A program made the position numbers and the translations under genes. The notes below the pieces were generated by a model, which had not been told where the DNA came from, ran no database searches, and saw only the letters and a list, made by a program, of their open reading frames with translations. From the NCBI RefSeq assembly GCF_058153355.1, contig NZ_CM177019.1: 64,000 nt of DNA; one strand, 5' to 3'. Shown here in pieces: positions 6,025 through 49,258 of the stretch. Position 1 is the stretch's first letter. Every line of letters begins with the position of its first letter.

Positions 6025-6219
6025 TTTCCACTCCTTGTGGTGGCGAAAAAATATCACAAACTAGAATAGCGCCTTGTATGACAATTCAGCGAGTGAATAT
6101 TTTGAAAATTCAGACAATAAACTGAGCATTCTTTTTCTCTCTCTATCATGCTTATGGCAAACTACGGTTTTTGCACCATTTTCGCTGCCTCGTCGGGCAA
6201 CAGAGGAAGAAAAATCCAT

Positions 6220-17180: not shown

Positions 17181-19172
17181 TTACTCAAGCAAGGTTAATA
17201 ATTGTTCGCAAAGCAAAACGCAGTTATTCATTGCTTCTCCCCGTGCCTCGCCTTCTGTATTACGAAATTGTCCCAACACATGTGCCAGCCGATAAAAACC
17301 CATCGCGGTGAGTTCATTGACCAGCAACTCTGACTGACTAATGGCACTCTGTTCCTGATAGCGCCAGCCATTATGGAGCAGTTGAATAAGCAACGCCTGA
17401 CAGCGCATCAGTAACTGATGAGTGGTAGACGGTACAGGCAGAACGCTGGCAGAAGGTAGCGGTGCCACAGGCGCAGTTTCTGCGTCCAGCGCCCAGGCGC
17501 GGGTTTTTGTCATCATCACCCGTGGTTCCAGTGTCAATTGCCCCTCTACAAAACTGACAAAGCCAGAAACCAGACTCACGGGGTCGTCTGTTTGTTGTAA
17601 CAGAGCTGCCATGCGTTCAACGGCAAAAGGAGAACAGGCAGATGCCGGAAGGGATAACGTCAGCACATTATCGTCACCTTCGCCACTGATTACCTGCGCA
17701 TCCAGTGTCTGCCGACTGCTGTCCCAACCGAGTGAAATGCACTCTTCTACTGGCAGAATAAATAAGTTATCGACCTGGTTAAGCTGTCGTATGGCGGCTG
17801 GCGGACGTTGGCGTAAATATTCCCGCAAAGCCACAATGCCCGGCTGGCGCAGTGGTGCGCTCAACATTTGCCAGGCATCAGGCGACAGCGGAACAACACT
17901 GCTTAAGCGGTTGCGGGTAGCTAATAGCAACTCGCCATCAGCACTGCGTTTTGCTGCTTGTGAAACAATTTGCCCACCCGCCAGCGCGCCAGCCTGAAAA
18001 CTAAACAGCCGCCGTTTTGCCGCTGGAGAGTTATCCTGTTCACTTCTCGGCCAACTGCGCGAAAGATGCAAAATACTGCCGGTGTCGGGATCGGTGAACC
18101 AGATGCGTAAACCATACCGCTCATTATCCTGCCAGCAACGCATACCTAGTGACACCAGCCGCAAATGATCAAGCTTTGCTTCGCCAGCAATGCCTGCGCC
18201 AATGACCGTGCGCCACGGTATGGGCGGTACTTCACCGACACTGTCACGTCGCGCCATCTCTTGTGCACTGTTCAAGCGACTGGTTAACGCCGCAAGCTGG
18301 CACAAGCATTTTCCGGCATGATAGTAGCTGGCGCGGGCGTGGAAGGCATCAACGCTTGCCCGTAGCTGTCGTAGTGATTCACTTACCCAACGCCAGTTGC
18401 AGCGTTCCGCCGCTTGCTGCGCGCGGCTGAAAGCGGCCTCGTAGTGGATTGACGGTTGGCTGATGCCTCCCAGCCATAATGCCTGACTTAATTGCTGAAC
18501 ATATTGACGACATGCTTTACCTTCGTCGCTGGAAAACGGATCGTCAGATGATGTGACGTGTTCACTGTGCATCTGCCAGATCAAATGAGTAAATTCTGCT
18601 TGTTGATTTTTGGCCTCGACGAAGGCCTGCACAGCCAGTGCTACGTGTTCACACAGCGTTCCTTCAATACAATCACAACGGGCGAAACGAATGCTGCTGC
18701 GGGAATAAAAACGCACATCGCTCATCGGTAAGCGGGCAGAGGGAATTTCGCCCGGCGTGCAGAACAACTCAATGGTGATGCCTTTAGCGACCAGCGCCTG
18801 CGCGCGTTTGCGCGTGGTATTGGGCAGGGTAGCCAGTTCTTCCTGCCAGATTGCCGGATCCCACTCTTCTTCTTTTTCCGTAGGCTGGGCGGTGGCACAA
18901 AGTCGTTGATAACTTAACACCAGCATCACGCGATGACGGCACATGCCGCTGGCCCCGCAGCTGCATTGAGCCTCTTTCAGTGCCTGACTGTTCGCCAGCC
19001 GGGTACGGACACCGTCACTGAACGTGGCGATTAAAGCGCCGTTCTCATGGCAGATTTCCGGGACATTGCCATTTTCCAGTTCCTTAAGGCTGCGCTTCAC
19101 AAAACCAGCATTGCTTAACGCCGTCAGGGCCTGCGGTGTCAGTTCTAATAATTCCGGACGTAGTGAATTCAT
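17181..19172 (-). CDS. yehQ: SWIM zinc-finger protein with two CxC-x(n)-CxH motifs; last gene of the yehLMPQ operon
   Basis: Motifs CSCGASGMCRH and CDCIEGTLCEH. The start ATG overlaps the yehP stop as ATGA, so start is set at MNSLRPELL… (36th codon of the track ORF). Confidence 0.8.
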   Translation of the reverse strand: MNSLRPELLELTPQALTALSNAGFVKRSLKELENGNVPEICHENGALIATFSDGVRTRLANSQALKEAQCSCGASGMCRHRVMLVLSYQRLCATAQPTEKEEEWDPAIWQEELATLPNTTRKRAQALVAKGITIELFCTPGEIPSARLPMSDVRFYSRSSIRFARCDCIEGTLCEHVALAVQAFVEAKNQQAEFTHLIWQMHSEHVTSSDDPFSSDEGKACRQYVQQLSQALWLGGISQPSIHYEAAFSRAQQAAERCNWRWVSESLRQLRASVDAFHARASYYHAGKCLCQLAALTSRLNSAQEMARRDSVGEVPPIPWRTVIGAGIAGEAKLDHLRLVSLGMRCWQDNERYGLRIWFTDPDTGSILHLSRSWPRSEQDNSPAAKRRLFSFQAGALAGGQIVSQAAKRSADGELLLATRNRLSSVVPLSPDAWQMLSAPLRQPGIVALREYLRQRPPAAIRQLNQVDNLFILPVEECISLGWDSSRQTLDAQVISGEGDDNVLTLSLPASACSPFAVERMAALLQQTDDPVSLVSGFVSFVEGQLTLEPRVMMTKTRAWALDAETAPVAPLPSASVLPVPSTTHQLLMRCQALLIQLLHNGWRYQEQSAISQSELLVNELTAMGFYRLAHVLGQFRNTEGEARGEAMNNCVLLCEQLLTLLE

Positions 19173-20305: not shown

Positions 20306-22577
20306 GGAAAACTCCCCAGTGTTGCAGTGATGCCAGTGCCTGCTGTTCGAGTTGTTGATGATGTGCAATGGCTTGCGGTGGACAATGCAACGGCATTTGC
20401 AGCGCTGAAACGGGAAGCTGTGCGAGCTGGTAATGCTCAAGCACCTGATGCGCCAGCGTCCCGCGTTCTCGTGGTGGTAGCCAGGCCATCGCCGCGCGTA
20501 AATCGGGCAGGGCGTTAATAAAATCGTCGTCACTCAGTTGATTTAAATGACTACTGAAACCGGCGATAAATGCCGGCTGACAGGCCAGTTGATGGCGGGC
20601 CAGCGCCAGCAAACCGTGCAGCGCCTCGCCAGATTGTGCCGGGGATAATTGTGCCAGCATCGTCAGCGCCGCTTCGGCACTGGCGTTGGGATGTTCCAGA
20701 CGCATCAGCGCGCCAAGGGCCGCACCGCGATCCAGCGCTGGGGCATGAATCGCCTGACTGCGACGTTCCAGTAAGGCTACCGCCGCAGAAAGCGAAACGC
20801 CGGGTAAATTAACGCCGCTATTTAGATCGCGCAGGATATGGCAAAGCGCCTGCCAGCTATGCAGGTGAGCGTGAAACTCCTTCTCATCCGGCCTGCCGTT
20901 GGATTCACATAGCCACAGTGTGCGATCGATAGCCGCGTATAACGTCGTCTGTAATATCTGCGCGCCTTGCATACCGCTGATTTCATCGAGCTGCCACAAG
21001 GCGTAAAGCACTTCCAGCGCCTGGCCCATTTCGGCAAACTGATTTTCCTTGGCGATTAATAATGTGAGTTGTTCCAGTAATTGCTGACTGAAGGACGCCA
21101 GACCCGCTAACGCGGCCTGGCTAAGACATGTGGTGATGCCGCTGATTCCACCCGCGTCCAGCATATCGGCTTCTAATTTATTGCGTGCGGCCTCCTGGAG
21201 TGTGGCACCAAAGCAGGCGGCTTCAATCAATGCCGCATGTTGGCTAAGTGGCTGGGTTAATGTCCAGCGTTCTTCACCGTTGCCCGCCAGCGTCAGTGTA
21301 CTTCCTTGCTCGCGCACAATGCCGGGAATCTCCAGTATTACCAACTGATGTAGCACCTGACTTTGCGCCAGTCCATCGGGGGTAAAGCGATTTAAGGTAA
21401 GCTCCGCCGGAAGAGAGATTCCGGTACGTTCCAGTTCGTAGGTGACATCTTTTGGCAGAGGTGGCTGTGGCGTCGAGGGGGCAAGTTTACCGAATCCGTC
21501 ACCTGCTAATGTGTCTATCAACGTTACCAGTATCGGATCGGTATCGGGATGAATAACGTCGCGATAGCTCCACGGCAACGGCGCATTCAAGGCTTCTTTA
21601 ATCAGCGAGCCTGCTATGGCATCCAGCCAGTCAGTGCGTAACGGTAGTGTATGACCGCGCAACTGTGCCAGCGCCATCGCATGTAAATGAGCGGCAGCCA
21701 TATCCGCGGTTGAAGCAGGCAATTTGTGCTGGCGCAAACGGGTAAGAACCGTTTTTAGTAGTTGTTCACCTGCCTGCTGCAAGCCCCACCGCCAGCACCA
21801 GTTTTGCCAGACCGGGGCAGGCATTCCTGAAAGGTATCCTGCCAGCACATCAAGGCGCTTTTCACTGTATGGCGTGAGATAGCAACCTGTAACGGCATCA
21901 TCCTGTGAGAGCAATTCTGGCTTGTTAATTTCTTGCGGGCATTCGCGCCACATTTTTGCCAGTGCCGGAGCGTGCCAGCCTCCGCAGACGACTAATACGT
22001 CGCCATTATTTTGCTGCATCGCCCATGCAATCCAGCGGGCCATAAAGGCTTCGCGCTGACGATTGAGTGCATCGCCGGAGGCGTCGCCCCGCAGTTGTGC
22101 AAAATAGTGCGCCAGTGCAGAGGGTAATATAGTTTGCTGGCTTTCATCTTCGAACAAGTGATCCCACAAGGTGTCGCTGTTATCCATGCGGGTGGCACGC
22201 AGCAGAAAGGCCTGGCTTTCCTCTTGCATATCAGGCGAATCATCCTCTTCTTCACTTTGTGCCCAGCAAGGCAAATCGATGAAGTAAGTTTGTGCCTGAA
22301 TACGACGTGCGGCTTGTAGCGCCTGCCACTCCGGCGAAAATTCAGCAAATGGCGTCCAGGCACCACGCCCGGGGGCCGCACCGTCCTGATACTGGCAATA
22401 ACTGTAAATAGCTACCGGAAGCTGGTGGGCTAACAACAGTTCGTCTACCCGGTCATTAAAATCAGCCGGGCCTTCAATCAACACGTATCGTGGCCGCTGG
22501 CTTTCGATTAACGATTTCACCAGCCGGGCGCAGGCCGGACTATGATGCCGGATGCCGACAATTAACGGCTCGCTCAT
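20298..22577 (-). CDS. yehM: Large uncharacterised protein (759 aa) encoded between the MoxR ATPase and the vWA protein
   Basis: Start at MSEPLIVGIRHHSP…, 10 nt downstream of the yehL stop with GGAAAG upstream. I recognise no catalytic motif. Confidence 0.75.
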   Translation of the reverse strand: MSEPLIVGIRHHSPACARLVKSLIESQRPRYVLIEGPADFNDRVDELLLAHQLPVAIYSYCQYQDGAAPGRGAWTPFAEFSPEWQALQAARRIQAQTYFIDLPCWAQSEEEDDSPDMQEESQAFLLRATRMDNSDTLWDHLFEDESQQTILPSALAHYFAQLRGDASGDALNRQREAFMARWIAWAMQQNNGDVLVVCGGWHAPALAKMWRECPQEINKPELLSQDDAVTGCYLTPYSEKRLDVLAGYLSGMPAPVWQNWCWRWGLQQAGEQLLKTVLTRLRQHKLPASTADMAAAHLHAMALAQLRGHTLPLRTDWLDAIAGSLIKEALNAPLPWSYRDVIHPDTDPILVTLIDTLAGDGFGKLAPSTPQPPLPKDVTYELERTGISLPAELTLNRFTPDGLAQSQVLHQLVILEIPGIVREQGSTLTLAGNGEERWTLTQPLSQHAALIEAACFGATLQEAARNKLEADMLDAGGISGITTCLSQAALAGLASFSQQLLEQLTLLIAKENQFAEMGQALEVLYALWQLDEISGMQGAQILQTTLYAAIDRTLWLCESNGRPDEKEFHAHLHSWQALCHILRDLNSGVNLPGVSLSAAVALLERRSQAIHAPALDRGAALGALMRLEHPNASAEAALTMLAQLSPAQSGEALHGLLALARHQLACQPAFIAGFSSHLNQLSDDDFINALPDLRAAMAWLPPRERGTLAHQVLEHYQLAQLPVSALQMPLHCPPQAIAHHQQLEQQALASLQHWGVFHV

Positions 22578-39376: not shown

Positions 39377-39566
39377 CCGCATTAATGAACACTTATTTAA
39401 TGCTGCGAATATTCTGCGGACCTTCGTCCGAAACTCTATAAAGTCGATTGATCGTACAGGCAATGCTTCATTATCATCCTTCGTGGCTGTGTAGTGGATG
39501 TACAGCTATAGTTTGTTATGCACTCATTCTATCCAGGCATAACCTTTACTACAGGGATAACGTTCA

Positions 39567-39848
39567 ATGAATAAGTACTGGCTGTCAGGAATTATTTTTC
39601 TTGCCTATGGAATGGCTTCTCCCGCGTTCTCTTCACAGACTGCCACATTAACGATTAATGGCAGGATCAGTCCCCCAACATGCAGTATGGCTATGGTTAA
39701 TGGTCAACCTCAACAGCATTGTGGTCAGTTAACGTATGATGTTGATACCCGTCATCAGGTTTCTTCGCCAGTCAAAGGTGTGACGACAGAAGTGGTTGTT
39801 GCAGGTAGTGATAGCAAACGTCGAATCGTGTTAAATCGCTACGATTAA
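39567..39848 (+). CDS. yehE: Small exported protein preceding the fimbrial operon
   Basis: 93-aa ORF with signal peptide (…LAYGMASPAFSSQTA). Confidence 0.7.
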   Translation: MNKYWLSGIIFLAYGMASPAFSSQTATLTINGRISPPTCSMAMVNGQPQQHCGQLTYDVDTRHQVSSPVKGVTTEVVVAGSDSKRRIVLNRYD

Positions 39849-39879
39849 TTTGCCACCCTGGTTTTTTAAGCGGATTTAG

Positions 39880-39925
39880 AAAGCTGAAATCATTCGTGTG
39901 AATGATTTCAGCTTTTTTATTGATA
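39880..39925 (+). terminator. Strong Rho-independent terminator after yehE
   Basis: aagctgaaatcattc/gaatgatttcagctt long stem followed by TTTTTTATTG. Confidence 0.6.
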
Positions 39926-40143
39926 TTAATAATACCATTTAAAAAAATCTGCATTAATTAATAGATGTGATAAATATTTAATATGCTTAAGTATTTGTTG
40001 TATTTATATTGCAATAGTTAATTTGTTTTAAATCAATAAAACAATATGTTTACATTGCGGCAACTTTTTTGATGTGAGAAATTTGTTTCCAAGAGATACA
40101 GACTCTTAACAACCAAAAAATAAATTTTATTAAGGAACATATT

Positions 40144-40686
40144 ATGAAACGTTCAATTATTGCTGCCGCTGTCTTTTCTTCTTTTTTTATGAGCGCTGGG
40201 GTATTTGCCGCAGACGTTGATACCGGAACATTAACCATTAAAGGGAATATTGCAGAATCTCCGTGTAAATTCGAAGCGGGTGGCGATTCAGTAAGTATTA
40301 ATATGCCAACTGTACCAACCACTGTCTTTGAAGGTAAAGCTAAATACTCGACCTATGATGATGCAGTCGGTGTAACCAGCAGCATGTTAAAAATTAGCTG
40401 TCCGAAAGAAGTTGCTGGTGTAAAACTCTCGTTGATTACCAACGATAAAATAACCGGAAACGATAAGGCGATAGCCAGTAGCAACGATACCGTGGGGTAC
40501 TATCTCTATTTAGGTGATAACAGCGATGTCCTGGATGTTTCTGCGCCTTTTAACATTGAAAGTTATAAAACAGCGGAAGGTCAATATGCCATTCCGTTTA
40601 AAGCGAAATATCTGAAACTGACAGATAACTCAGTGCAATCAGGTGATGTGTTATCTTCTCTGGTTATGCGTGTGGCGCAGGATTAA
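40144..40686 (+). CDS. yehD: Fimbrial major subunit (chaperone-usher pathway)
   Basis: Signal peptide and fimbrial-subunit-like size and composition; AAGGAA ribosome-binding site. Confidence 0.8.
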   Translation: MKRSIIAAAVFSSFFMSAGVFAADVDTGTLTIKGNIAESPCKFEAGGDSVSINMPTVPTTVFEGKAKYSTYDDAVGVTSSMLKISCPKEVAGVKLSLITNDKITGNDKAIASSNDTVGYYLYLGDNSDVLDVSAPFNIESYKTAEGQYAIPFKAKYLKLTDNSVQSGDVLSSLVMRVAQD

Positions 40687-40720
40687 TAAATAAAATTTCA
40701 AATTTCTCCAGGTAATAAAC

Positions 40721-40750
40721 ATGGCCGCTATCCCCATGGCGGCCTTTTAA
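40721..40750 (+). terminator. Intra-operon hairpin/attenuator between the subunit and chaperone genes
   Basis: ggccgc-tatccccat-gcggcc stem followed by TTTTAATTT, between yehD and yehC. Confidence 0.4.
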
Positions 40751-40766
40751 TTTAAGAGGCATTAAG

Positions 40767-41441
40767 ATGAAAGGATTATTAGCTTTACTTATTTCTTCTA
40801 TGGTCCTTCCTGCGCATGCCGGAATTGTTATCTACGGGACGCGCATTATTTACCCGGCAGAAAATAAAGAAGTGATGGTGCAGTTGATGAACCAGGGAAA
40901 CCGTTCTTCGCTGCTGCAGGCGTGGATTGATGATGGCGATACGTCGTTACCACCAGAAAAAATTCAGGTTCCTTTCATGTTAACGCCACCAGTGGCAAAA
41001 ATAGGGGCAAATTCCGGGCAGCAAGTAAAAATCAAAATTATGTCGAATAAACTGCCCACTAATAAAGAGAGCATTTTTTATCTGAATGTTCTGGATATTC
41101 CACCAAATAGTCCAGAGCAAGAGGGCAAGAATGCACTGAAATTTGCAATGCAAAACAGAATCAAATTGTTTTACCGGCCTGCGGGTATTGCACCGGTAAA
41201 TAAAGCGACATTTAAAAAGTTACTGGTAAATCGCAGTGGCAATGGATTGGTGATAAAAAATGACTCAGCAAATTGGGTAACGATTTCGGATGTCAAAGCT
41301 AATAATGTTAAAGTCAATTATGAAATTATCATGATTGCACCATTGGAAAGTCAGAGTGTTAATGTCAAAACTAATAATGCGAATAGCTGGCATCTGACCA
41401 TTATCGATGACCATGGCAACTATATTAGTGACAAAATTTAA
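40767..41441 (+). CDS. yehC: Periplasmic fimbrial chaperone (PapD-like)
   Basis: Signal peptide (…VLPAHA) and PapD-like N-terminal sequence (GIVIYGTRIIYPAE…). Confidence 0.85.
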   Translation: MKGLLALLISSMVLPAHAGIVIYGTRIIYPAENKEVMVQLMNQGNRSSLLQAWIDDGDTSLPPEKIQVPFMLTPPVAKIGANSGQQVKIKIMSNKLPTNKESIFYLNVLDIPPNSPEQEGKNALKFAMQNRIKLFYRPAGIAPVNKATFKKLLVNRSGNGLVIKNDSANWVTISDVKANNVKVNYEIIMIAPLESQSVNVKTNNANSWHLTIIDDHGNYISDKI

Positions 41442-41456
41442 TTGCAGGAGCTACCT

Positions 41457-43937
41457 ATGTTGAGAATGACCCCACTTGCATCAGCAATCGTAGCGTTATT
41501 GCTTGGCATTGAAGCTTATGCGGCTGAAGAAACTTTTGATACTCATTTTATGATAGGTGGAATGAAAGACCAGCAGGTTGCAAATATTCGTCTTGATGAT
41601 AATCAACCCTTGCCAGGGCAGTATGAAATCGATATTTATGTCAATAAGCAATGGCGAGGGAAATACGAGGTTATCGTTAAAGATAATCACGAAGAAACAT
41701 GCCTGGAAAGGGAAATTATAAAGCGATTGGGTTTTAATACCGATAACTTTGCCAGCGGTAAGCAATGTTTAACATTTGAGCAACTTGTTCACGGTGGGAG
41801 CTATACCTGGGATATCGGAGTTTTTCGTCTCGATTTCAGTGTACCGCAGGCGTGGGTGGAAGAACTGGAAAGTGGCTATGTTCCACCGGAAAACTGGGAG
41901 CGGGGTATTAATGCGTTTTATACCTCTTATTATGTGAGTCAGTATTACAGCGACTATAAAGCGTCGGGTAATAGCAAGAGTACATATGTACGTTTTAACA
42001 GCGGGTTAAACTTACTGGGGTGGCAACTGCATTCTGATGCCAGTTTAAGTAAAACAAATAGCAATCCAGGGGTGTGGAAAAGCAATACCCTGTATCTGGA
42101 ACGTGGATTTGCCCAACTTCTCGGCACGCTTCGCGTGGGTGATATGTACACATCAAGCGATATTTTTGATTCTGTTCGCTTCAGCGGTGTGCGGTTGTTT
42201 CGTGATATGCAGATGTTGCCTAACTCGAAACAAAATTTTACTCCACGGGTGCAGGGGATTGCTCAGAGTAACGCGCTGGTAACTATTGAACAGAACGGTT
42301 TTGTGGTTTATCAGAAAGAGGTTCCTCCTGGCCCGTTTGCGATTACAGATTTGCAGTTGGCCGGTGGTGGAGCAGATCTTGATGTCAGCGTGAAAGAGGC
42401 GGACGGTTCGGTAACCACCTATCTGGTGCCTTATGCAGCAGTGCCGAATATGCTGCAACCCGGCGTGTCGAAATATGATTTTGCGGCAGGTCGTAGCCAT
42501 ATTGAAGGGGCGAGCAAACAAAGTGATTTTGTTCAGGCGGGTTATCAGTATGGTTTTAATAACTTATTGACGCTGTATGGCGGATCGATGGTCGCGAATA
42601 ATTATTACGCGTTCACTTTGGGGACTGGCTGGAATACACGCATTGGTGCCATTTCCGTCGATGCCACGAAGTCGCATAGTAAACAAGACAACGGCGATGT
42701 GTTTGACGGGCAAAGTTATCAAATTGCCTACAACAAATTTGTGAGCCAAACGTCGACGCGTTTTGGTCTGGCGGCCTGGCGTTATTCGTCGCGTGATTAC
42801 CGGACATTTAACGATCACGTTTGGGCAAACAATAAAGATAATTATCGCCGTGATGAAAACGATATCTATGACATTGCCGATTATTACCAGAACGATTTTG
42901 GCCGTAAAAATAGCTTTTCTGCCAATATGAGCCAGTCATTGCCAGAAGGCTGGGGTTCTGTGTCTTTAAGTACGTTATGGCGAGATTACTGGGGGCGTAG
43001 CGGCAGCAGTAAGGATTATCAGTTGAGTTATTCCAACAACCTGCGACGGATAAGCTATACCCTCGCGGCAAGCCAGGCTTATGACGAGAATCATCATGAA
43101 GAGAAACGTTTTAATATTTTTATATCGATTCCCTTTGATTGGGGTGATGACGTTACGACGCCTCGTCGGCAAATATATATGTCTAACTCAACGACGTTTG
43201 ATGATCAGGGTTTTGCCTCAAATAATACGGGATTATCGGGAACCTTTGGAAGCCGGGATCAATTTAACTATGGGGTCAACCTGAGTCATCAGCATCAGGG
43301 AAATGAAACGACAGCTGGAGCGAATTTAACCTGGAACGCGCCGGTTGCGACAGTGAATGGCAGTTATAGTCAGTCGAGTGCTTATCGACAAGCTGGAGCC
43401 AGTATTTCAGGGGGCATTGTCGCCTGGTCGGGTGGCGTTAATCTGGCGAACCGTCTTTCCGAAACGTTTGCTGTAATGAACGCACCTGGAATTAAAGATG
43501 CTTATGTCAATGGGCAAAAATATCGTACAACAAATCGTAATGGAGTGGTGGTATACGACGGAATGACACCTTATCGGGAAAATCACCTGATGCTGGATGT
43601 GTCGCAAAGCGATAGTGAAACAGAATTACGTGGTAACCGGAAAATTGCCGCACCTTATCGCGGCGCGGTCGTACTGGTTAATTTTGATACCGATCAGCGC
43701 AAGCCCTGGTTTATAAAAGCGTTAAGAGCGGATGGGCAACCATTAACGTTTGGTTATGAAGTCAATGATATCCACGGTCACAATATTGGTGTTGTCGGTC
43801 AGGGAAGCCAGTTATTTATTCGCACTAATGATGTACCGCCATCGGTTAATGTGGCAATTGATAAACAACAAGGGCTCTCATGCACAATCACCTTCGGTAA
43901 AGAGATTGATGAAAATAGGAACTATATTTGCCAGTAA
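41457..43937 (+). CDS. yehB: Fimbrial outer-membrane usher
   Basis: 826-aa beta-barrel usher; start at MLRMTPLASA… with GCAGGAG upstream. Confidence 0.85.
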   Translation: MLRMTPLASAIVALLLGIEAYAAEETFDTHFMIGGMKDQQVANIRLDDNQPLPGQYEIDIYVNKQWRGKYEVIVKDNHEETCLEREIIKRLGFNTDNFASGKQCLTFEQLVHGGSYTWDIGVFRLDFSVPQAWVEELESGYVPPENWERGINAFYTSYYVSQYYSDYKASGNSKSTYVRFNSGLNLLGWQLHSDASLSKTNSNPGVWKSNTLYLERGFAQLLGTLRVGDMYTSSDIFDSVRFSGVRLFRDMQMLPNSKQNFTPRVQGIAQSNALVTIEQNGFVVYQKEVPPGPFAITDLQLAGGGADLDVSVKEADGSVTTYLVPYAAVPNMLQPGVSKYDFAAGRSHIEGASKQSDFVQAGYQYGFNNLLTLYGGSMVANNYYAFTLGTGWNTRIGAISVDATKSHSKQDNGDVFDGQSYQIAYNKFVSQTSTRFGLAAWRYSSRDYRTFNDHVWANNKDNYRRDENDIYDIADYYQNDFGRKNSFSANMSQSLPEGWGSVSLSTLWRDYWGRSGSSKDYQLSYSNNLRRISYTLAASQAYDENHHEEKRFNIFISIPFDWGDDVTTPRRQIYMSNSTTFDDQGFASNNTGLSGTFGSRDQFNYGVNLSHQHQGNETTAGANLTWNAPVATVNGSYSQSSAYRQAGASISGGIVAWSGGVNLANRLSETFAVMNAPGIKDAYVNGQKYRTTNRNGVVVYDGMTPYRENHLMLDVSQSDSETELRGNRKIAAPYRGAVVLVNFDTDQRKPWFIKALRADGQPLTFGYEVNDIHGHNIGVVGQGSQLFIRTNDVPPSVNVAIDKQQGLSCTITFGKEIDENRNYICQ

Positions 43938-43952
43938 TAATCGGGTGGCTCT

Positions 43953-44987
43953 ATGAAAATTCGCATAATGTTATTTATATTAATTATGATGGTAATGCCT
44001 GTGAGTTATGCAGCATGTTATGGAGAGTTATCTGCCCAGCATAATTTTGCTGTTCAGGGGGATTTTGCACTTACTCAAACACAAATGGCAACATATGAGC
44101 ATAATTTTAATGATTCGTCATGCGTGAGTACAAATACTATCACCCCTATGAGCCCGTCGGATATTATTGTTGGACTTTATAACGATACCATTAAATTAAA
44201 TTTACATTTTGAATGGATCAATAAAAACAACATCACGTTGTCAAATAATCAGACCAGTTTCACCAATGGTTATTCGGTAACGGTGACACCTGCGGCCAGT
44301 AATGCAAAAGTGAATGTTTCTGCGGGGGGCGGCGGTTCAGTGATGATTAATGGTGTTGCGACATTATCCAGTGCTTCATCATCGACACGCGGGAGTGCTG
44401 CAGTACAATTTTTACTGTGTTTATTCGGTGGCAAGTCATGGGATGCATGTGTAAATAGCTACAGAAATGCATTGGCACAAAATGCAGGTGTCTATTCCTT
44501 TAATCTGACATTGTCATACAACCCGATAACCACAACCTGCAAACCGGACGATTTATTAATTACTTTAGAGAGTATTCCCGTTTCACAATTACCAGCTACA
44601 GGTAACAAAGCAACAATAAATAGTAACAAAGGGGATATTGTTCTGCGTTGTAAAAACTTATTAGGTCAACAAAATCAAACATCACGGAAAATGCAGGTGT
44701 ATTTATCAAGTTCTGACTTGTTAACCAACAGCAACACAATACTGAAAGGTGCGGAAGATAATGGCGTAGGATTTATTCTTGAAAGTAATGGTTCTCCAGT
44801 CACACTTTTAAATATCACTAACAGCAGTAAAGAATACACAAATTTAAAAGAAATTGCGGCAAAGTCAAAACTTACAGATACAACGGTTTCAATTCCGATA
44901 ACTGCCAGTTACTACGTCTACGATACAAATAAAATTAAATCTGGCGCACTGGAGGCAACCGCATTAATCAACGTGAAATACGACTAA
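43953..44987 (+). CDS. yehA: Fimbrial protein, adhesin-like
   Basis: 344-aa exported ORF, last gene of the chaperone-usher operon. Confidence 0.75.
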   Translation: MKIRIMLFILIMMVMPVSYAACYGELSAQHNFAVQGDFALTQTQMATYEHNFNDSSCVSTNTITPMSPSDIIVGLYNDTIKLNLHFEWINKNNITLSNNQTSFTNGYSVTVTPAASNAKVNVSAGGGGSVMINGVATLSSASSSTRGSAAVQFLLCLFGGKSWDACVNSYRNALAQNAGVYSFNLTLSYNPITTTCKPDDLLITLESIPVSQLPATGNKATINSNKGDIVLRCKNLLGQQNQTSRKMQVYLSSSDLLTNSNTILKGAEDNGVGFILESNGSPVTLLNITNSSKEYTNLKEIAAKSKLTDTTVSIPITASYYVYDTNKIKSGALEATALINVKYD

Positions 44988-46566: not shown

Positions 46567-46839
46567 ATGTCTCATACAATCCGTGATAAACAGAAACTGA
46601 AAGCGCGTGCCAGTAAGATTCAGGGCCAGGTCGTGGCGCTCAAGAAAATGCTCGACGAGCCGCACGAATGCGCAGCTGTTCTACAACAGATTGCTGCTAT
46701 CCGTGGCGCGGTAAACGGCCTGATGCGCGAAGTGATTAAGGGGCATCTGACGGAACACATCGTTCACCAGGGGGATGAGCTAAAACGTGAAGAAGATCTG
46801 GATGTCGTTCTGAAGGTGCTGGATTCTTATATCAAATGA
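46567..46839 (+). CDS. rcnR: Ni/Co-responsive repressor (CsoR/RcnR family)
   Basis: 90-aa ORF recognised as RcnR. Confidence 0.9.
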
Positions 46840-46908
46840 AAGTGCCTAATATGGCCGTAGTTGAGGCAATAAATAGAGGGACAAGTGACGTTAAGCTGAA
46901 TTAGAGTA

Positions 46909-46932
46909 AATGGCGTGAGGACACACGCCATT
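46909..46932. terminator. Hairpin between rcnR and the convergent small-protein gene
   Basis: aatggcgtg-aggaca-cacgccatt. Confidence 0.4.
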
Positions 46933-46948
46933 CGAGGATATAGTTTGA

Positions 46949-47263
46949 TTAATTTTCGAAAAATTGCTTCACAGCCCAGCCACCATGACCACCTGGAGTT
47001 ATGAATGAAACAAAACCTTTGTCATCGACGCTCTGGATTTCTACTGTCATTGATTCATCTAACACGCGACATTTATTGGATGTAATGAGACTCAGCATAG
47101 CCTGTTGGTCATTGTCCTGGATGTAACTGATCATCTCGTAAAAGTCAGTTAACTTTTTACAGTTAAATGTACCTTCTTTAAGTGTTGCGCTGTCTCCGTG
47201 ACTTAGTGCGAATGCATTTGGCATCATTGCCACAAAGATGACGGTAACGAGTAGTTTTTTCAT
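46949..47263 (-). CDS. Small secreted hypothetical protein (104 aa)
   Basis: Signal peptide (MKKLLVTVIFVAMMPNAFA); lies in a visibly AT-rich segment. Confidence 0.55.
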   Translation of the reverse strand: MKKLLVTVIFVAMMPNAFALSHGDSATLKEGTFNCKKLTDFYEMISYIQDNDQQAMLSLITSNKCRVLDESMTVEIQSVDDKGFVSFITPGGHGGWAVKQFFEN

Positions 47264-47272
47264 TGTAGCCTC

Positions 47273-47620
47273 TTATAATTCAGAACATTCACTGATGTTG
47301 TAAGTGCCTTTTCTACCATCATCGTTTACGAGATGTAGCACGAAGATGATGGGATTGGCATCAATGAAAGATACAGAGACGTTCCCGCTTTCGGTGCTAT
47401 ACATCTTTGCAATCTGTTTTTCACCAATATATGAAAGATCCCAACTCACTCCGTTCAAGCTAAAATGCATCTGTTTGCCGTCAATATCGATGGAGGATTG
47501 TGCCGTAACGGTTTTCCCATTGCTGCCAATTTGACCCTGCTGAAGAGCATCACATTTATAGGAGCTTGCATAAGTAAATAGAGGTAGTAGCAGAAGTGCA
47601 GCAAAAATTTTACTCTTCAT
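47273..47620 (-). CDS. Small secreted hypothetical protein (115 aa)
   Basis: Signal peptide (MKSKIFAALLLLPLFTYASS), two Cys residues; 9 nt upstream of the 104-aa ORF, so probably a bicistron. Confidence 0.55.
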   Translation of the reverse strand: MKSKIFAALLLLPLFTYASSYKCDALQQGQIGSNGKTVTAQSSIDIDGKQMHFSLNGVSWDLSYIGEKQIAKMYSTESGNVSVSFIDANPIIFVLHLVNDDGRKGTYNISECSEL

Positions 47621-48258
47621 ATTTTCCCTTTGCTTGGATTTGAGTTACCTATTTTGGGGTAGTCATTATAAAACTATTAATTAGTAAAATGAACAAGTTT
47701 TCATTTGTTTAGTAATGGTATTGTTTAGGTTTGAAATTATTACGTACTTTCATAGCAATAGGTTGGATAAACAGCAGTTCAGAGAACAAGTTGCACTATC
47801 TACATACTTTCCCGCTTTCCATTGTATGTTAGGTAATAGATAGCCTTTGCCCGTAAGACTAAAAATATTAGAAATGACTCATTCGAATACCTTCTATTCA
47901 CCTTAATATAGGTTTGATTATTGTAATCGTTTAATGTGTCTTATGGATTTTTTCCTACTTTTCATTTGCATAATATAGGGGGCACAGCATGCTCTTGAAA
48001 TTAATTATTAAGATATTTAAATTTTACAGCACACAACTACTTTTCGTTGTCTTATGTGTTGAACGTACTTCGAGTATAGGTAGGGTTGTATATATATTGC
48101 GTGGGTAGAGTTAGAATAGAGGAGGCATCATTTATAGAATATTCAAGAACGTTAACCTGTGATCAATAAATAAAAATATCAAATGGTGTTCAAACATATT
48201 TTTCTATGAAAAATCCAGCCATCTATGATGAATTTTTAGATCCATTTTAATTAAAGTA

Positions 48259-48537
48259 TGATTATGAACCAATATTTAGCCAAGAATGGTGGTATAGCGC
48301 GTATCCAATGACACCGGAAAACGCATCTATGAAGTCCTTGTTTATCTCTATAAGAGGAAATCAACACTAATAAAATATAGTGATGTAACACATCGAGCAG
48401 GTTGCTCTGATGCTGGTCTTCAACTGTGGCTTAAACAGCTATCAAACTTCGGTGTTATTGAGATGAAAGAATTATCTTTCTCAACTTTCAATCTCAAAAA
48501 GCTAGAGGAAATAGACCTTAATTATTCCACTCTCTAA
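48259..48537 (+). pseudogene. Possible frameshifted gene remnant
   Basis: ATG-initiated frame MIMNQYLAKNGGIARIQ* continues after a +1 shift as …VSNDTGKRIYEVLVYLYKRKSTLIKYSDVTHRAGCSDAGLQLWLKQLSNFGVIEMKELSFSTFNLKKLEEIDLNYSTL*; no clean start or RBS for the long frame. Confidence 0.2.
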
Positions 48538-48673
48538 ACTTATCTCTTTATTTAAAGTAAAAATGAAAATATTATGGTATCAGCTACGTGGTGGTAACTG
48601 GTGTTTATGATCATAGGTACACATATACAGGGAACCCTGGAAAACAAAAGTAATATATTGATGATTTCGTTTG

Positions 48674-48913
48674 TTATAACTTCGTGGTATCAAGTCCGGC
48701 GGCTTTGAGTCGCTCGGTAAGATTTCTCATTTTGCTGAACTCTGTACCAAAGCTGGCTTTAAGTCCTACACCTTCGCAAAACTCTTTTGCCGTGACGTTT
48801 TTAAGATGGTCAGCGTATTTGATCATCTGGAGGTGCATTTCCATCGTTTGGCTATTTCGTGGTGCGCTGCTAATGGCTTGCTTAATGTTCTCGTAGATCT
48901 GGGTTTCTGTCAT
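48674..48913 (-). CDS. Hypothetical 79-aa protein
   Basis: Intact ORF (MTETQIYENIKQAISSAPRNSQ…) with AT-rich upstream region containing tandem direct repeats. Confidence 0.5.
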   Translation of the reverse strand: MTETQIYENIKQAISSAPRNSQTMEMHLQMIKYADHLKNVTAKEFCEGVGLKASFGTEFSKMRNLTERLKAAGLDTTKL

Positions 48914-48934
48914 TTTTTATCTCACCTATCAAAT

Positions 48935-48964
48935 TTAGATAAATAATATAAATTAGATAAATAA
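48935..48964. promoter_or_regulatory. Two direct repeats TTAGATAAATAA (18-bp register) just upstream of the 79-aa ORF
   Basis: Exact 12-nt repeats at 48935-48946 and 48953-48964. Confidence 0.3.
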
Positions 48965-49129
48965 GATAATCAATAGTTTTTACCATATGAATAATGGATG
49001 TGGATTGTTTCTTTTTCATTTCTGATATGGAGTACAAAATGGGGTCACAATGAAGAAGCGATGAATGGAGGCGAGCTTGCATCTGCAAGCCTCTTCCCCT
49101 AATCTGGCACAAAATATAGAGATTCAACC

Positions 49130-49258
49130 AAACGACTCGGGGTGCCCTTCTGCGTGAAGGCTGAGAAATACCCGTATCACCTGATCTGGATAATGCCAGC
49201 GTAGGGAAGTCACGGACCACCAGGTCATTGCTTCTTCACGTTATGGCAGGAGCAAACT
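49130..49258 (+). ncRNA. TPP (THI-box) riboswitch in the thiM leader
   Basis: cggggtgcccttctgcgtgaaggctgagaaatacccgtatcacctgatctggataatgccagcgtagggaa matches the canonical thiM aptamer; the expression platform runs into the thiM ribosome-binding site. Confidence 0.8.

What the first reader, a model, noticed from the sequence alone, without database searches (positions are those of the whole stretch)
46840..49130. AT-rich islet between rcnR and the thiM riboswitch carrying two small secreted proteins, a 79-aa protein and about 1 kb of apparently non-coding DNA
The flanking genes are GC-typical for E. coli, but this roughly 2.3 kb stretch is visibly AT-rich. It contains a probable bicistron of two signal-peptide proteins (115 aa and 104 aa, 9 nt apart, minus strand), then about 1 kb (47640-48660) with no ORF above about 30 codons, then a 79-aa ORF. 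Composition and content suggest horizontally acquired, probably H-NS-silenced DNA. None of the three proteins has a function I can recognise. Whether the islet is strain-specific I cannot tell without a comparison.
Basis: partly seen in the sequence, partly recalled or inferred. Interest (0 to 1): 0.5.

Follow-up and report, generated by a model that had tools for sequence, protein, structure and literature searches.

The report
Decayed defence island at thiM riboswitch
The AT-rich 2.3 kb between rcnR and thiM is the worn-down, immobile remnant of a mobile anti-phage defence island that inserts into the thiM thiamine riboswitch; it still carries a known small repressor (RptR-type) and two exported proteins of unknown function.

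Summary
Window 46838-49124 (2287 bp, 36% GC against about 50%) replaces 90 bp of the K-12 rcnR-thiM spacer. The whole islet is present in 339 of 5426 complete E. coli genomes. The listed carriers are mainly O157:H7 or O55:H7, where the genes are ECs_2908-2910. 4728 genomes have the K-12-like empty site.

It is a decayed integrative element. Intact 8-14 kb relatives in E. coli, Klebsiella and Citrobacter sit at the same place. They are flanked by an 82-bp direct repeat, which is the first 82 nt of the thiM leader and TPP aptamer. They carry a tyrosine integrase, anti-phage cargo, a serine recombinase, iterons with a Rep gene, and the islet's own genes.

The window has lost attL. The "1 kb non-coding" stretch contains gene debris:
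- the integrase 3' end
- the Rep 3' end
- a frameshifted 81-codon gene

The 79-aa ORF is an RptR-family repressor, 70% identical to PDB 9R2Z, and its two-box operator is intact. The 104-aa and 115-aa proteins are exported small beta-barrels from orphan families under strong purifying selection. Their function is unknown.

The islet also supplies the sequence immediately upstream of the thiM riboswitch. H-NS silencing was not tested.

The parts
46838..49124 (.). The islet: 2287 bp, 36% GC, replacing 90 bp of the K-12 rcnR-thiM spacer
   Evidence: BLAST against K-12; GC; distribution among genomes
46910..46931 (.). 8-bp-stem hairpin (ATGGCGTG-AGGACA-CACGCCAT) downstream of the 104-aa gene and of rcnR. 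Possible terminator, weak T-run
   Evidence: Scan hit 46926-46913 on the minus strand; read from the sequence. 27 nt here match the same position in the Citrobacter islands
46949..47263 (-). 104-aa exported protein (ECs_2910 homologue, labelled 'outer membrane protein' in RefSeq). SH3/Tudor-like small barrel with two inserted helices; invariant Cys35 and Cys65
   Evidence: dN/dS 0.06-0.08 against the E. coli, Klebsiella and Citrobacter island copies
47273..47620 (-). 115-aa exported protein (ECs_2909 homologue). All-beta barrel of the MliC/PliC/lipocalin-like fold class; invariant Cys23 and Cys112. Present in all five island gene maps examined
   Evidence: dN/dS about 0.04
47624..47755 (-). 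Upstream region of the 115/104 bicistron, 66% identical to the same region of the intact EC17CM13 island. Contains a TATAAT on the minus strand near 47667-47672 (read by eye)
   Evidence: sequence
47794..47850 (+). Remnant of the last 19 or so codons of the island tyrosine integrase (...YLHTFPLS.VC)
   Evidence: tblastn E = 4.7e-6, 79% identity; blastn 77% over 53 nt, E = 2.6e-7
48039..48088 (+). Scrap similar to the sequence just downstream of the GmrSD cargo gene in the ETEC4069 island
   Evidence: blastn 76% over 50 nt, E = 4e-5
48107..48250 (+). Remnant of the last 47 or so codons of the island replication-initiator (wHTH, O/DnaD-like), with an internal stop codon
   Evidence: tblastn E = 7e-11 and 3e-9; translation; PHROG replication-initiation families for the intact protein
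48258..48540 (+). Pseudogene of an 81-aa island gene. The N-terminal 17 codons are in one frame and the rest in the +1 frame
   Evidence: tblastn 85% identity, E = 1e-36; frames shown
48674..48913 (-). rptR-like gene (79 aa, ECs_2908 homologue): small dimeric transcriptional repressor
   Evidence: Pfam HTH_73; PDB 9R2Z E = 2e-32; key residues E25, E58, S60, K61, L69, A72, L74 all present; described in PMC12255303
48936..48973 (-). rptR promoter and operator. Two RptR-type 6-bp boxes (TATCTA on the coding strand, at 48936-41 and 48954-59), 18 bp apart, flank a -10-like TATATT (48950-48945). The -35-like TTGATT is at 48973-48968
   Evidence: It is the only such box pair in the 64-kb window. The architecture matches that described for RptR promoters
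49029..49049 (+). GGAGTACAAAATGGGGTCACA: degenerate copies of the GGGGTACA-type repeats conserved in the right arm of all intact islands. Inferred integrase arm-type sites
   Evidence: Comparison of right arms from E. coli, Klebsiella and Citrobacter. The function is an inference
49115..49120 (+). Island-borne -10-like hexamer TATAGA, about 7 nt upstream of the start of the thiM leader. Inferred replacement promoter for thiMD
   Evidence: Conserved in every attR. The promoter role is inferred and was not detected by the consensus scan
49125..49206 (+). attR core: the 82 bp that are duplicated at attL in intact islands. This is the only copy in the window
49128..49224 (+). thiM TPP riboswitch aptamer, intact. 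In intact relatives the 5' 82 nt lie on the island side of the integration crossover
   Evidence: Rfam RF00059, 71.2 bits; alignment

Best explanation
The islet is the immobilised wreck of an integrative, probably replicative, anti-phage defence island that uses the thiM TPP riboswitch as its attachment site.

Shown in intact relatives:
- A tyrosine integrase recombines within the first 82 nt of the thiM leader.
- The island carries its own copy of those 82 nt plus upstream sequence, so thiM keeps a complete aptamer.
- The chromosomal copy ends up in front of the integrase gene.
- Defence genes sit behind the integrase and behind rptR.

Shown in the window:
- attL, the integrase (apart from about 19 codons), all cargo, the serine recombinase, the iterons and most of the Rep gene are gone.
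- An 81-codon gene is frameshifted.

Inferred:
- The gene order is 104, 115, integrase remnant, Rep remnant, pseudogene, rptR. This cannot come from a single deletion in one island. It is most simply the product of two tandem islands followed by deletions.
- The leftmost deletion ends exactly in the rcnR stop codon.

What still works (inferred from intact ORFs, purifying selection and family knowledge):
1. RptR dimers bind the two TATCTA boxes flanking the -10 of the rptR promoter and autorepress it. There is no cargo left downstream.
2. A bicistron exports two disulphide-bonded small beta-barrel proteins to the periplasm. The most likely role is a protective or inhibitor-type periplasmic function, such as inhibition of a peptidoglycan hydrolase or exclusion of incoming phage or DNA. 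This is a low-confidence guess.
3. The islet's right end supplies the promoter region for thiMD.
For: Site occupancy:
- Empty site in 4728 of 5426 genomes, full islet in 339.
- Island integrase in 147 genomes. In 37 of the 40 rows listed, the match also covers an annotated riboswitch.

Intact islands at the same site:
- E. coli, Klebsiella and Citrobacter. The latter two have different left-hand neighbours but always thiM on the right.
- An 82-bp direct repeat ends at ...GCGTAGGG in all of them.
- The hybrid attL still scores as a TPP aptamer, 61.3 bits.

Remnants in the window. There is no second aptamer copy and no other island gene anywhere in the window.

Cargo in relatives:
- Type IV mREase, GmrSD-domain endonuclease, TIR-STAND and SIR2 proteins behind the integrase.
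- mREase_II (DUF6998) behind rptR.

Replication module: iterons and a Rep gene.

RptR identity and operator.

Selection:
- dN/dS 0.03-0.08 for all three ORFs.
- Between this strain and O157 Sakai the two exported-protein ORFs differ at 0.6% of sites and rptR at 1.3%, while the debris region differs at 2.4%.

Protein folds.
Against: - Nothing has been tested experimentally: excision, RptR binding here, export of the two proteins, and the thiMD start site are all inferred.
- The tandem-island scenario is inferred from gene order alone. A mosaic formed by recombination or inversion cannot be excluded.
- The leftmost 65 bp (46838-46902) and 47851-48038 match nothing that was fetched.
- The consensus promoter scan did not call the proposed thiMD promoter.
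- dS for the 104/115 comparisons is saturated, so those ratios are only qualitative.
Confidence: 0.82

Rival explanations
1. Generic H-NS-silenced xenogeneic islet. The DNA is foreign, transcriptionally silent and functionally inert, and the three ORFs are on their way to decay.
For: - AT-rich.
- Decay is evident in the middle kilobase.
- No function is assignable to two of the three ORFs.
Against: - All three ORFs are intact in both lineages compared, and show dN/dS 0.03-0.08 across island variants.
- The rptR operator and promoter are preserved.
- The islet's right end sits where the thiMD promoter must be, so at least that part cannot be silent if thiMD is expressed. This last point is an inference.
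- H-NS occupancy was not testable here.
Confidence: 0.25
2. The roughly 1-kb ORF-free stretch (47621-48673) encodes a functional non-coding RNA or regulatory element rather than debris.
For: - It is retained in all 338 genomes that carry most of it.
- Two sigma-70-like matches lie on the + strand, at 47995 and 48235.
Against: - No Rfam family matched: the only sub-threshold hit is a miRNA model at E = 0.93.
- Promoter-like sites are fewer than in shuffles (3 against 9.6), and no terminator was found in the stretch.
- About 45% of the stretch is accounted for by recognisable gene remnants, with stops and a frameshift.
- It diverges about 4 times faster than the two exported-protein ORFs (2.4% against 0.6%) between this strain and Sakai.
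- There are no iterons or notable repeats.
Confidence: 0.07
3. The 104/115 pair is an adhesin or outer-membrane protein pair, as the database labels suggest ('outer membrane protein' in RefSeq, 'Adhesin' in UniProt for the 40%-identical homologue).
For: - The labels appear.
- The locus lies next to the yeh fimbrial operon.
Against: - The labels have no supporting model: there is no NCBIfam or Pfam hit.
- The mature 115-aa protein is about 97 residues, with 3-11-residue strands (mostly 4-7) and a conserved disulphide. The outer-membrane barrels that matched are 135-224 residues, and the soluble PliC, MliC and PhiA barrels score equally well.
- The 104-aa protein is an SH3/Tudor-like fold with helices, not a membrane barrel.
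- The genes travel with the mobile island in Klebsiella and Citrobacter, not with yeh.
Confidence: 0.08
4. The islet is ancestral at this locus and was deleted in K-12-like strains, rather than being an insertion remnant.
For: The K-12 spacer and the islet share no sequence between rcnR and the aptamer, so polarity cannot be read from one pairwise comparison.
Against: - Intact islands keep the K-12-type 90-bp spacer to the left of attL, so the K-12 spacer is the target-site state.
- The empty site is found in 87% of genomes.
- The same element sits next to thiM in other genera, with other left-hand neighbours.
- The composition is atypical.
- The islet's ORF-bearing left part is far less diverged between lineages (0.8%) than its flanks (3.7-8.9%).
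Confidence: 0.03

Closest known systems
RptR (RMS-proximal transcriptional regulator) of the EPEC RRDM defence island; PDB 9R2Z; Pfam HTH_73 (PF24718); Zhang et al., NAR 2025, PMC12255303
   Same: - Same 79-aa single-domain protein, 70% identical.
- All residues reported as DNA-binding or dimerising are kept.
This is the 'two sites separated by a non-binding repeat' layout the paper describes.
- It sits in a mobile defence island.
   Different: - No Type I restriction-modification system or any other gene lies downstream in the window.
- In the intact relatives the downstream gene, where present, is a methyl-directed type II restriction enzyme (DUF6998), not hsdMSR.
- The boxes are TATCTA rather than TAGCTA.
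tRNA- or tmRNA-targeting integrative islands and satellites (P4-like elements, PICIs, tRNA-linked genomic islands) that rebuild their target gene on integration
   Same: - Tyrosine integrase next to attL.
- A long att identity inside a structured RNA gene or element.
- The island brings a replacement copy, so the target stays functional.
- Variable defence cargo.
- Frequent decay into integrase-less remnants.
   Different: - The target is a cis-regulatory riboswitch aptamer in an mRNA leader, and it is the 5' part (plus the promoter region) that the island replaces.
- No capsid, packaging or primase genes typical of P4-like elements or PICIs were seen.
- The backbone has a serine recombinase, iterons and an O/DnaD-like Rep protein instead.
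- I found no description of this att site in the library searched. Hochhauser et al. 2023 list an rcnR-thiM locus with a type IV restriction system and MGE type 'None'.
MliC/PliC/PhiA periplasmic inhibitors of lysozyme-type peptidoglycan hydrolases
   Different: - Sequence identity is 5-13%.
- There is no Pfam MliC match even at E <= 10.
- The MliC/PliC signature motifs (recalled from memory) are not evident in the sequence.
- Many unrelated small barrels score equally well.
- This is a resemblance in fold class only.
O-islands / S-loops of E. coli O157:H7 (lineage-specific islets relative to K-12)
   Same: This is the same islet as ECs_2908-2910 of O157 Sakai: 97.3% identity, and the same junctions and debris.
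   Different: Here it lies in a different strain background. The flanks are 4-9% diverged from Sakai, and only 10 genomes are 99% or more identical across the islet. I found no paper that discusses these genes.

Membership tests
RptR / HTH_73 repressors | About 79-aa single-domain protein matching Pfam PF24718 and homologous to PDB 9R2Z | tested here: met
   PF24718 i-E = 7e-31, covering model positions 1-70 of 71. 9R2Z_A E = 2e-32, 54 of 77 residues identical
RptR / HTH_73 repressors | Conserved alpha-4 DNA-binding residues (Glu58, Lys61; Ser60) and dimer residues (Glu25, Leu69, Ala72, Leu74) | tested here: met
   All seven are present at the same positions. The residues are those named in PMC12255303
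RptR / HTH_73 repressors | At least two 6-bp boxes (TAGCTA, TAGATA, TATCTA or TATATA) in its own promoter, overlapping or flanking the -10 | tested here: met
   Boxes at 48936-41 and 48954-59, 23 and 41 bp upstream of the ATG, flanking TATATT. This is the only pair spaced 9 or 18 bp among 28 single sites in the window
RptR / HTH_73 repressors | First gene of a defence operon (Type I RMS in 54 of 117 cases in the paper) | tested here: not met
   Nothing is co-directional downstream in the window; the next feature is a convergent pseudogene. Relatives have mREase_II downstream. The paper describes this as an association, not a strict requirement
RptR / HTH_73 repressors | Binds the boxes and represses transcription | not testable with these tools
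   Requires EMSA or a reporter assay
Site-specific integrative island (tyrosine integrase type) | Intact integrase gene | tested here: not met
   Only the last 19 or so codons remain, at 47794-47850. There is no other integrase in the window. Intact in relatives
Site-specific integrative island (tyrosine integrase type) | Direct att repeats at both ends | tested here: not met
   There is a single copy of the 82-bp core in the window. Two copies flank the intact relatives. The islet is therefore a remnant, not a functional member
Site-specific integrative island (tyrosine integrase type) | Same target site in independent hosts | tested here: met
   The thiM leader in E. coli, Klebsiella and Citrobacter, with the crossover boundary always after GCGTAGGG
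Site-specific integrative island (tyrosine integrase type) | Excision or circularisation | not testable with these tools
   Requires PCR or read evidence for attP and attB junctions
TPP riboswitch (RF00059) | Covariance-model score above the gathering threshold, located in a thi gene leader | tested here: met
   71.2 bits against 54.3, 34 nt upstream of the thiM ATG
MliC/PliC lysozyme inhibitors | Match to the Pfam MliC family and its signature motifs | tested here: not met
   No Pfam hit even at E <= 10. By eye the sequence lacks the MliC/PliC signature motifs; the motifs themselves are recalled from memory, not taken from a tool
MliC/PliC lysozyme inhibitors | Exported small beta-barrel of about 100 residues with a disulphide | tested here: met
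   [not shown]
H-NS-silenced xenogeneic DNA | AT-rich relative to the genome | tested here: met
   36% against 50%
H-NS-silenced xenogeneic DNA | H-NS occupancy and derepression in an hns mutant | not testable with these tools
   The motif scan was uninformative. No paper naming these genes was found

The most novel reading that the evidence does not exclude
The islet may be the fossil of a so far undescribed family of mobile defence islands whose attachment site is a riboswitch aptamer.

Integration swaps in an island-borne promoter and 5' aptamer half for thiMD. The same event parks the integrase gene behind the chromosomal thiM promoter and a hybrid TPP aptamer. Thiamine status could therefore influence integrase expression and excision.

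In every carrier, including all O157:H7, thiamine-salvage expression would run from foreign DNA.

In addition, the conserved 115/104 exported pair could be a new periplasmic protection or exclusion module carried by these islands.
Probability: 0.15. Interest if true: 0.7.

Novelty: new variant of a known kind. Interest (0 to 1): 0.42.

Why it matters
The islet itself is an ordinary genomic scar, but the analysis resolves several open points:
- It explains a small O157:H7/O55:H7-specific locus (ECs_2908-2910) that is still annotated mostly as hypothetical.
- It assigns one of the genes to the recently characterised RptR repressor family.
- It shows that thiMD in these strains is read from island-derived upstream DNA.

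It also points to a family of defence islands that target a riboswitch and rebuild it, much as tRNA-targeting islands rebuild their tRNA gene. I could find no description of that target choice.

The orphan RptR could still act in trans on other RptR-box promoters. The two conserved exported proteins are candidates for a function that outlived the mobile element that brought them.

Tried and rejected
- **Esr41 sRNA.** I recalled that this O157 sRNA might lie here. The literature places it in OI-43/SpLE1, so the lead was wrong.
- **Rfam on the islet.** Only the TPP aptamer was found.
- **PADLOC, NCBIfam and Pfam for the 104- and 115-aa proteins.** Nothing matched.
- **PHROG matches.** There are full-length families for all three ORFs, but the islet has no match in 50,697 phage genomes. 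These families probably derive from prophage predictions and do not indicate a phage origin.
- **Plasmids.** One 439-kb 'plasmid' record at 99% identity, otherwise nothing.
- **Deep profile search for the 115-aa family.** Only 15 representatives in 1.84 billion proteins, mostly fragments.
- **H-NS motif scan.** The enrichment is explained by AT content.
- **TPP control of the integrase.** Folding shows a conserved hairpin sequestering the integrase Shine-Dalgarno sequence in both island types. No conserved link to the aptamer was found. A 7-nt pairing between the P1 5' strand and the integrase start region exists only in the SCU-102 type.
- **14-nt complementarity between 49051-64 and the thiM expression platform.** The island arm does not co-vary with the different platforms of Klebsiella and Citrobacter, so this is probably chance.
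- **Literature.** A search for thiM + integrase + riboswitch, and a search for ECs2908-2910, found nothing relevant.
Full report
**1. Observation**

The stretch 46838-49124 has 36.2% GC in a window of 50%. It is the lowest-GC 2.3-kb segment of the whole 64 kb (z = -3.9). GC3 of the two leftmost genes is about 0.40, against 0.48-0.57 in rcnA, rcnR, thiM and thiD.

The interval between the 115-aa and 79-aa genes has no ORF longer than 46 codons.

Alignment with K-12 MG1655 shows that homology stops at 46837, inside the rcnR stop codon (TAA in K-12, TGA here). It resumes at 49125, three bases before the TPP aptamer. K-12 has an unrelated 90 bp in place of these 2287 bp. The aptamer itself (49128-49224) scores 71.2 bits against a gathering score of 54.3.

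**2. Distribution**

Counts among 5426 complete E. coli genomes:

| State of the rcnR-thiM interval | Genomes |
|---|---|
| K-12-type uninterrupted junction | 4728 |
| At least 80% of the islet | 339 |
| ...of which about 97% identical to the window | 329 |
| ...of which 99% or more identical | 10 |
| Only the thiM-proximal end of the islet (part of the query, mostly 80-90% identity) | about 240 |

The rows sampled from the 97% group are mainly O157:H7 or O55:H7, including Sakai, where the genes are ECs_2910, 2909 and 2908. The islet is therefore strain-specific. No paper in the searched library names these genes.

**3. What occupies the site elsewhere**

In strains SCU-102, ETEC4069 and EC17CM13 the same interval holds an 8-11 kb element. 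Its gene order, from the rcnR side, is:
- a copy of the TPP aptamer
- a 435-aa tyrosine integrase
- a variable gene or genes: an HNH type IV methyl-directed restriction enzyme, a GmrSD-domain endonuclease, or a TIR-STAND protein (annotation, PADLOC hits)
- a homologue of the 115-aa protein, with or without the 104-aa protein
- an XRE-type regulator
- a 180-185-aa serine recombinase of the invertase/resolvase type
- an unannotated stretch that in SCU-102 contains five 22-23-bp iterons
- small ORFs
- a wHTH protein matching phage replication-initiator families
- sometimes DUF6998, which PADLOC scores as a methyl-directed type II restriction enzyme at E = 1e-96
- the 79-aa gene
- the thiM aptamer

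The integrase occurs in 147 genomes, always on the chromosome. In 37 of the 40 rows listed, the match also covers an annotated riboswitch.

Homologues of the 104/115 pair in Klebsiella pneumoniae and Citrobacter freundii lie in the same kind of element. There the cargo is TIR-STAND, or a SIR2 protein plus other genes. These elements are again immediately upstream of thiM-thiD but have different genes on the other side. The element therefore follows thiM, not rcnR.

Hochhauser et al. 2023 list one such 'rcnR-thiM' locus (7956 bp, type IV restriction) with the MGE type given as 'None'.

**4. The attachment site**

An alignment of K-12, three attL junctions and four attR junctions, together with the Klebsiella and Citrobacter junctions, gives a consistent picture:
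- There is an 82-bp direct repeat, CAACCAAACGACTCGGGG...GCCAGCGTAGGG. It runs from about the thiM transcription start to just before the 3' strand of helix P1.
- At attL the chromosomal promoter and these 82 nt are followed by island sequence and, about 85 nt later, by the integrase start codon. This hybrid still scores 61.3 bits as a TPP aptamer, but its P1 helix is damaged.
- At attR the island supplies new upstream sequence (...CTGGCACAAAATATAGAGATTCAA) and the 5' part of the aptamer.
- In EC17CM13 and Citrobacter, the island-borne half differs from the resident one in the P3 stem-loop but keeps it base-paired. That fits selection for a working riboswitch.
- The right arm is conserved across the three genera and carries GGGGTACA-type repeats, which I take to be integrase arm sites (inference).

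The logic is the same as for tRNA-targeting islands, here applied to a riboswitch. I found no description of this target site in the searched library.

**5. What is left in the window**

A translated comparison of the intact-island proteins against the islet, sensitive blastn and direct translation identify these pieces:

| Window coordinates | What it matches | Identity / state |
|---|---|---|
| 46949-47620 | the 104/115 pair of EC17CM13 | 82-83% amino-acid identity |
| 47273-47620 | the 115-aa protein of SCU-102 | 42% amino-acid identity |
| 47624-47755 | upstream region of the 104/115 pair | 66% nucleotide identity |
| 47794-47850 | last 19 or so codons of the integrase | 79% amino-acid identity, E = 4.7e-6 |
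| 48039-48088 | sequence just downstream of the ETEC4069 cargo gene | 76% over 50 nt |
| 48107-48250 | last 47 or so codons of the Rep protein | contains an internal stop codon |
| 48258-48540 | the 81-aa island gene | 85% identity, split by a frameshift |
| 48674 onwards | the right end of the island | 84-91% nucleotide identity |

There is a single aptamer copy in the window and no other island gene. The islet has no iterons.

So the 'non-coding kilobase' contains gene debris, which accounts for about 45% of it. Between this strain and Sakai it has diverged about four times faster than the two exported-protein ORFs (2.4% against 0.6%; rptR differs at 1.3%).

The gene order (104, 115, integrase remnant, Rep remnant, pseudogene, rptR) cannot be derived from one island by a single deletion. 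The simplest history is two islands integrated in tandem, followed by deletions. One of those deletions removed attL and the K-12-type spacer right up to the rcnR stop codon. This history is an inference.

**6. The 79-aa protein**

It matches Pfam HTH_73. It is 70% identical to the protein crystallised as PDB 9R2Z. [quoted passage not shown]

All residues that the paper reports as conserved for DNA binding and dimerisation are present.

Upstream of the gene, on its own strand, the sequence reads TTGATT-N17-TATATT. TTTATCTAA repeats lie on either side of the -10 element. The two TATCTA boxes are among the four variants the paper accepts. They lie 23 and 41 bp upstream of the ATG and are the only such pair in the 64 kb. 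Their layout, two sites separated by a non-binding repeat, is one the paper reports as sufficient for repression.

Homologues at 75% identity or more occur in Vibrio, Shewanella, Salmonella, Yersinia and other genera.

In the window there is nothing downstream for RptR to control. It is an orphan autoregulated repressor, and it could still act in trans.

**7. The two exported proteins**

Shared features:
- Both have typical Sec signal peptides, judged by eye, and no lipobox.
- Each has two invariant cysteines.
- Both show dN/dS of 0.04-0.08 against the copies in E. coli, Klebsiella and Citrobacter islands. dS is saturated, so these ratios are qualitative.

Both families are tiny. For the 115-aa family a profile search found 15 representatives in 1.84 billion proteins. 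For both, only enterobacterial relatives at about 70% identity or more were found.

- PhiA, PliC and MliC, which are inhibitors of peptidoglycan hydrolases
- the Cap15 barrel
- designed beta-barrels
- small outer-membrane barrels

AFDB matches tell the same story.

The 104-aa protein has a model with pLDDT 85.5. It forms an SH3/Tudor-like barrel with two inserted helices.

There are no Pfam, NCBIfam or PADLOC hits for either protein. The database labels 'outer membrane protein' and 'adhesin' have no support that I could find.

My best guess is a periplasmic protective or inhibitor role that benefits the host, which would explain why the pair survived the loss of the rest of the element. I hold this with about 25% confidence.

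**8. Consequence for thiMD**

Everything upstream of 49125 is island DNA, so the thiMD promoter in this strain and in O157 is not the K-12 one. A conserved TATAGA at 49115-49120 sits at the right distance from the start of the leader. The consensus promoter scan did not call it, so this remains an inference.

**9. Other points**

- Between this strain and Sakai the ORF-bearing left part of the islet is 0.8% diverged, while rcnA, rcnR, thiM and thiD are 3.7-8.9% diverged. The already-decayed islet is therefore younger than its flanking backgrounds, or it has moved between them.
- H-NS binding could not be tested. A motif scan showed only what the base composition predicts.
- Leads that failed are listed in the tried-and-rejected section.

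**10. Verdict**

The islet is specifically a decayed, immobile remnant of a riboswitch-targeting defence island.
- One ORF now has a known family, RptR.
- Two ORFs are conserved orphans.
- The islet itself is ordinary.
- The parent family's choice of a riboswitch as its attachment site is the unusual part. It deserves a proper survey and an excision test.

Noticed in passing
L006:17246-18768 (SCU-102 intact island): Five tandem 22-23-bp iterons (17584-17700, GGGGGTAGGTCACTGTGAACTAG) lie next to a 183-aa serine invertase-like recombinase. A perfect 17-nt inverted repeat (17246-17262 and 18752-18768) brackets this roughly 1.5-kb unannotated stretch. It may be the island's origin of replication, an invertible segment, or both.
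   Followed up: no
L006:13058-13235 and L008:5712-5890 (attL of intact islands): The integrase Shine-Dalgarno sequence (AAAAAGGG) pairs with a conserved CUCUUUUUG in both the MFE and centroid folds of two diverged island types. The integrase gene lies about 85 nt behind the chromosomal thiM promoter and a hybrid TPP aptamer (61.3 bits). No conserved structural link between the aptamer and this hairpin was found.
   Followed up: partly
L008:16708 region; minus-strand positions 5666 and 19706 of L012; minus-strand positions 6149 and 16601 of L009: The island-borne 5' halves of the TPP aptamer differ in P3 from the resident copy but keep the stem paired. Examples are CCCTTCTTAAATGAAGG in EC17CM13 and CCCCATCGCTGATGGG in Citrobacter. 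This suggests selection for a working riboswitch after integration.
   Followed up: partly
window 49051-49064 and 49225-49238: Island-arm sequence TGAAGAAGCGATGA is complementary (13 of 14) to the thiM expression platform TCATTGCTTCTTCA. The arm is conserved in Klebsiella and Citrobacter islands although their platforms differ, so this is probably chance. A similar complementarity exists inside rcnR in SCU-102 (L006:12907-12923 with 21052-21068).
   Followed up: partly
[not shown]
   Followed up: partly
L004 (BL21(DE3) 2079364-2087652): BL21(DE3) carries a different remnant of the same island family (Rep-like HTH gene, DUF6998/mREase_II, rptR) next to thiM. It is joined to an IS1, and no rcnR, rcnA, rcnB or yehA-yehD gene is annotated in the 8.3 kb fetched.
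   Followed up: no
window about 39500-41800: This is the second-lowest-GC stretch of the window (38.4% over 2.3 kb). By synteny with SCU-102 it should fall in the yehE-yehB part of the yeh fimbrial region, but I did not map it. yehA (43953-44987) is intact here, although it is annotated as frameshifted in the closest genome.
   Followed up: no
PHROGs families phrog_33226, phrog_35183 and phrog_30666: All three islet proteins have full-length PHROG families, yet the islet has no match in 50,697 deposited phage genomes. These PHROGs probably stem from prophage predictions that swept in this chromosomal islet.
   Followed up: partly
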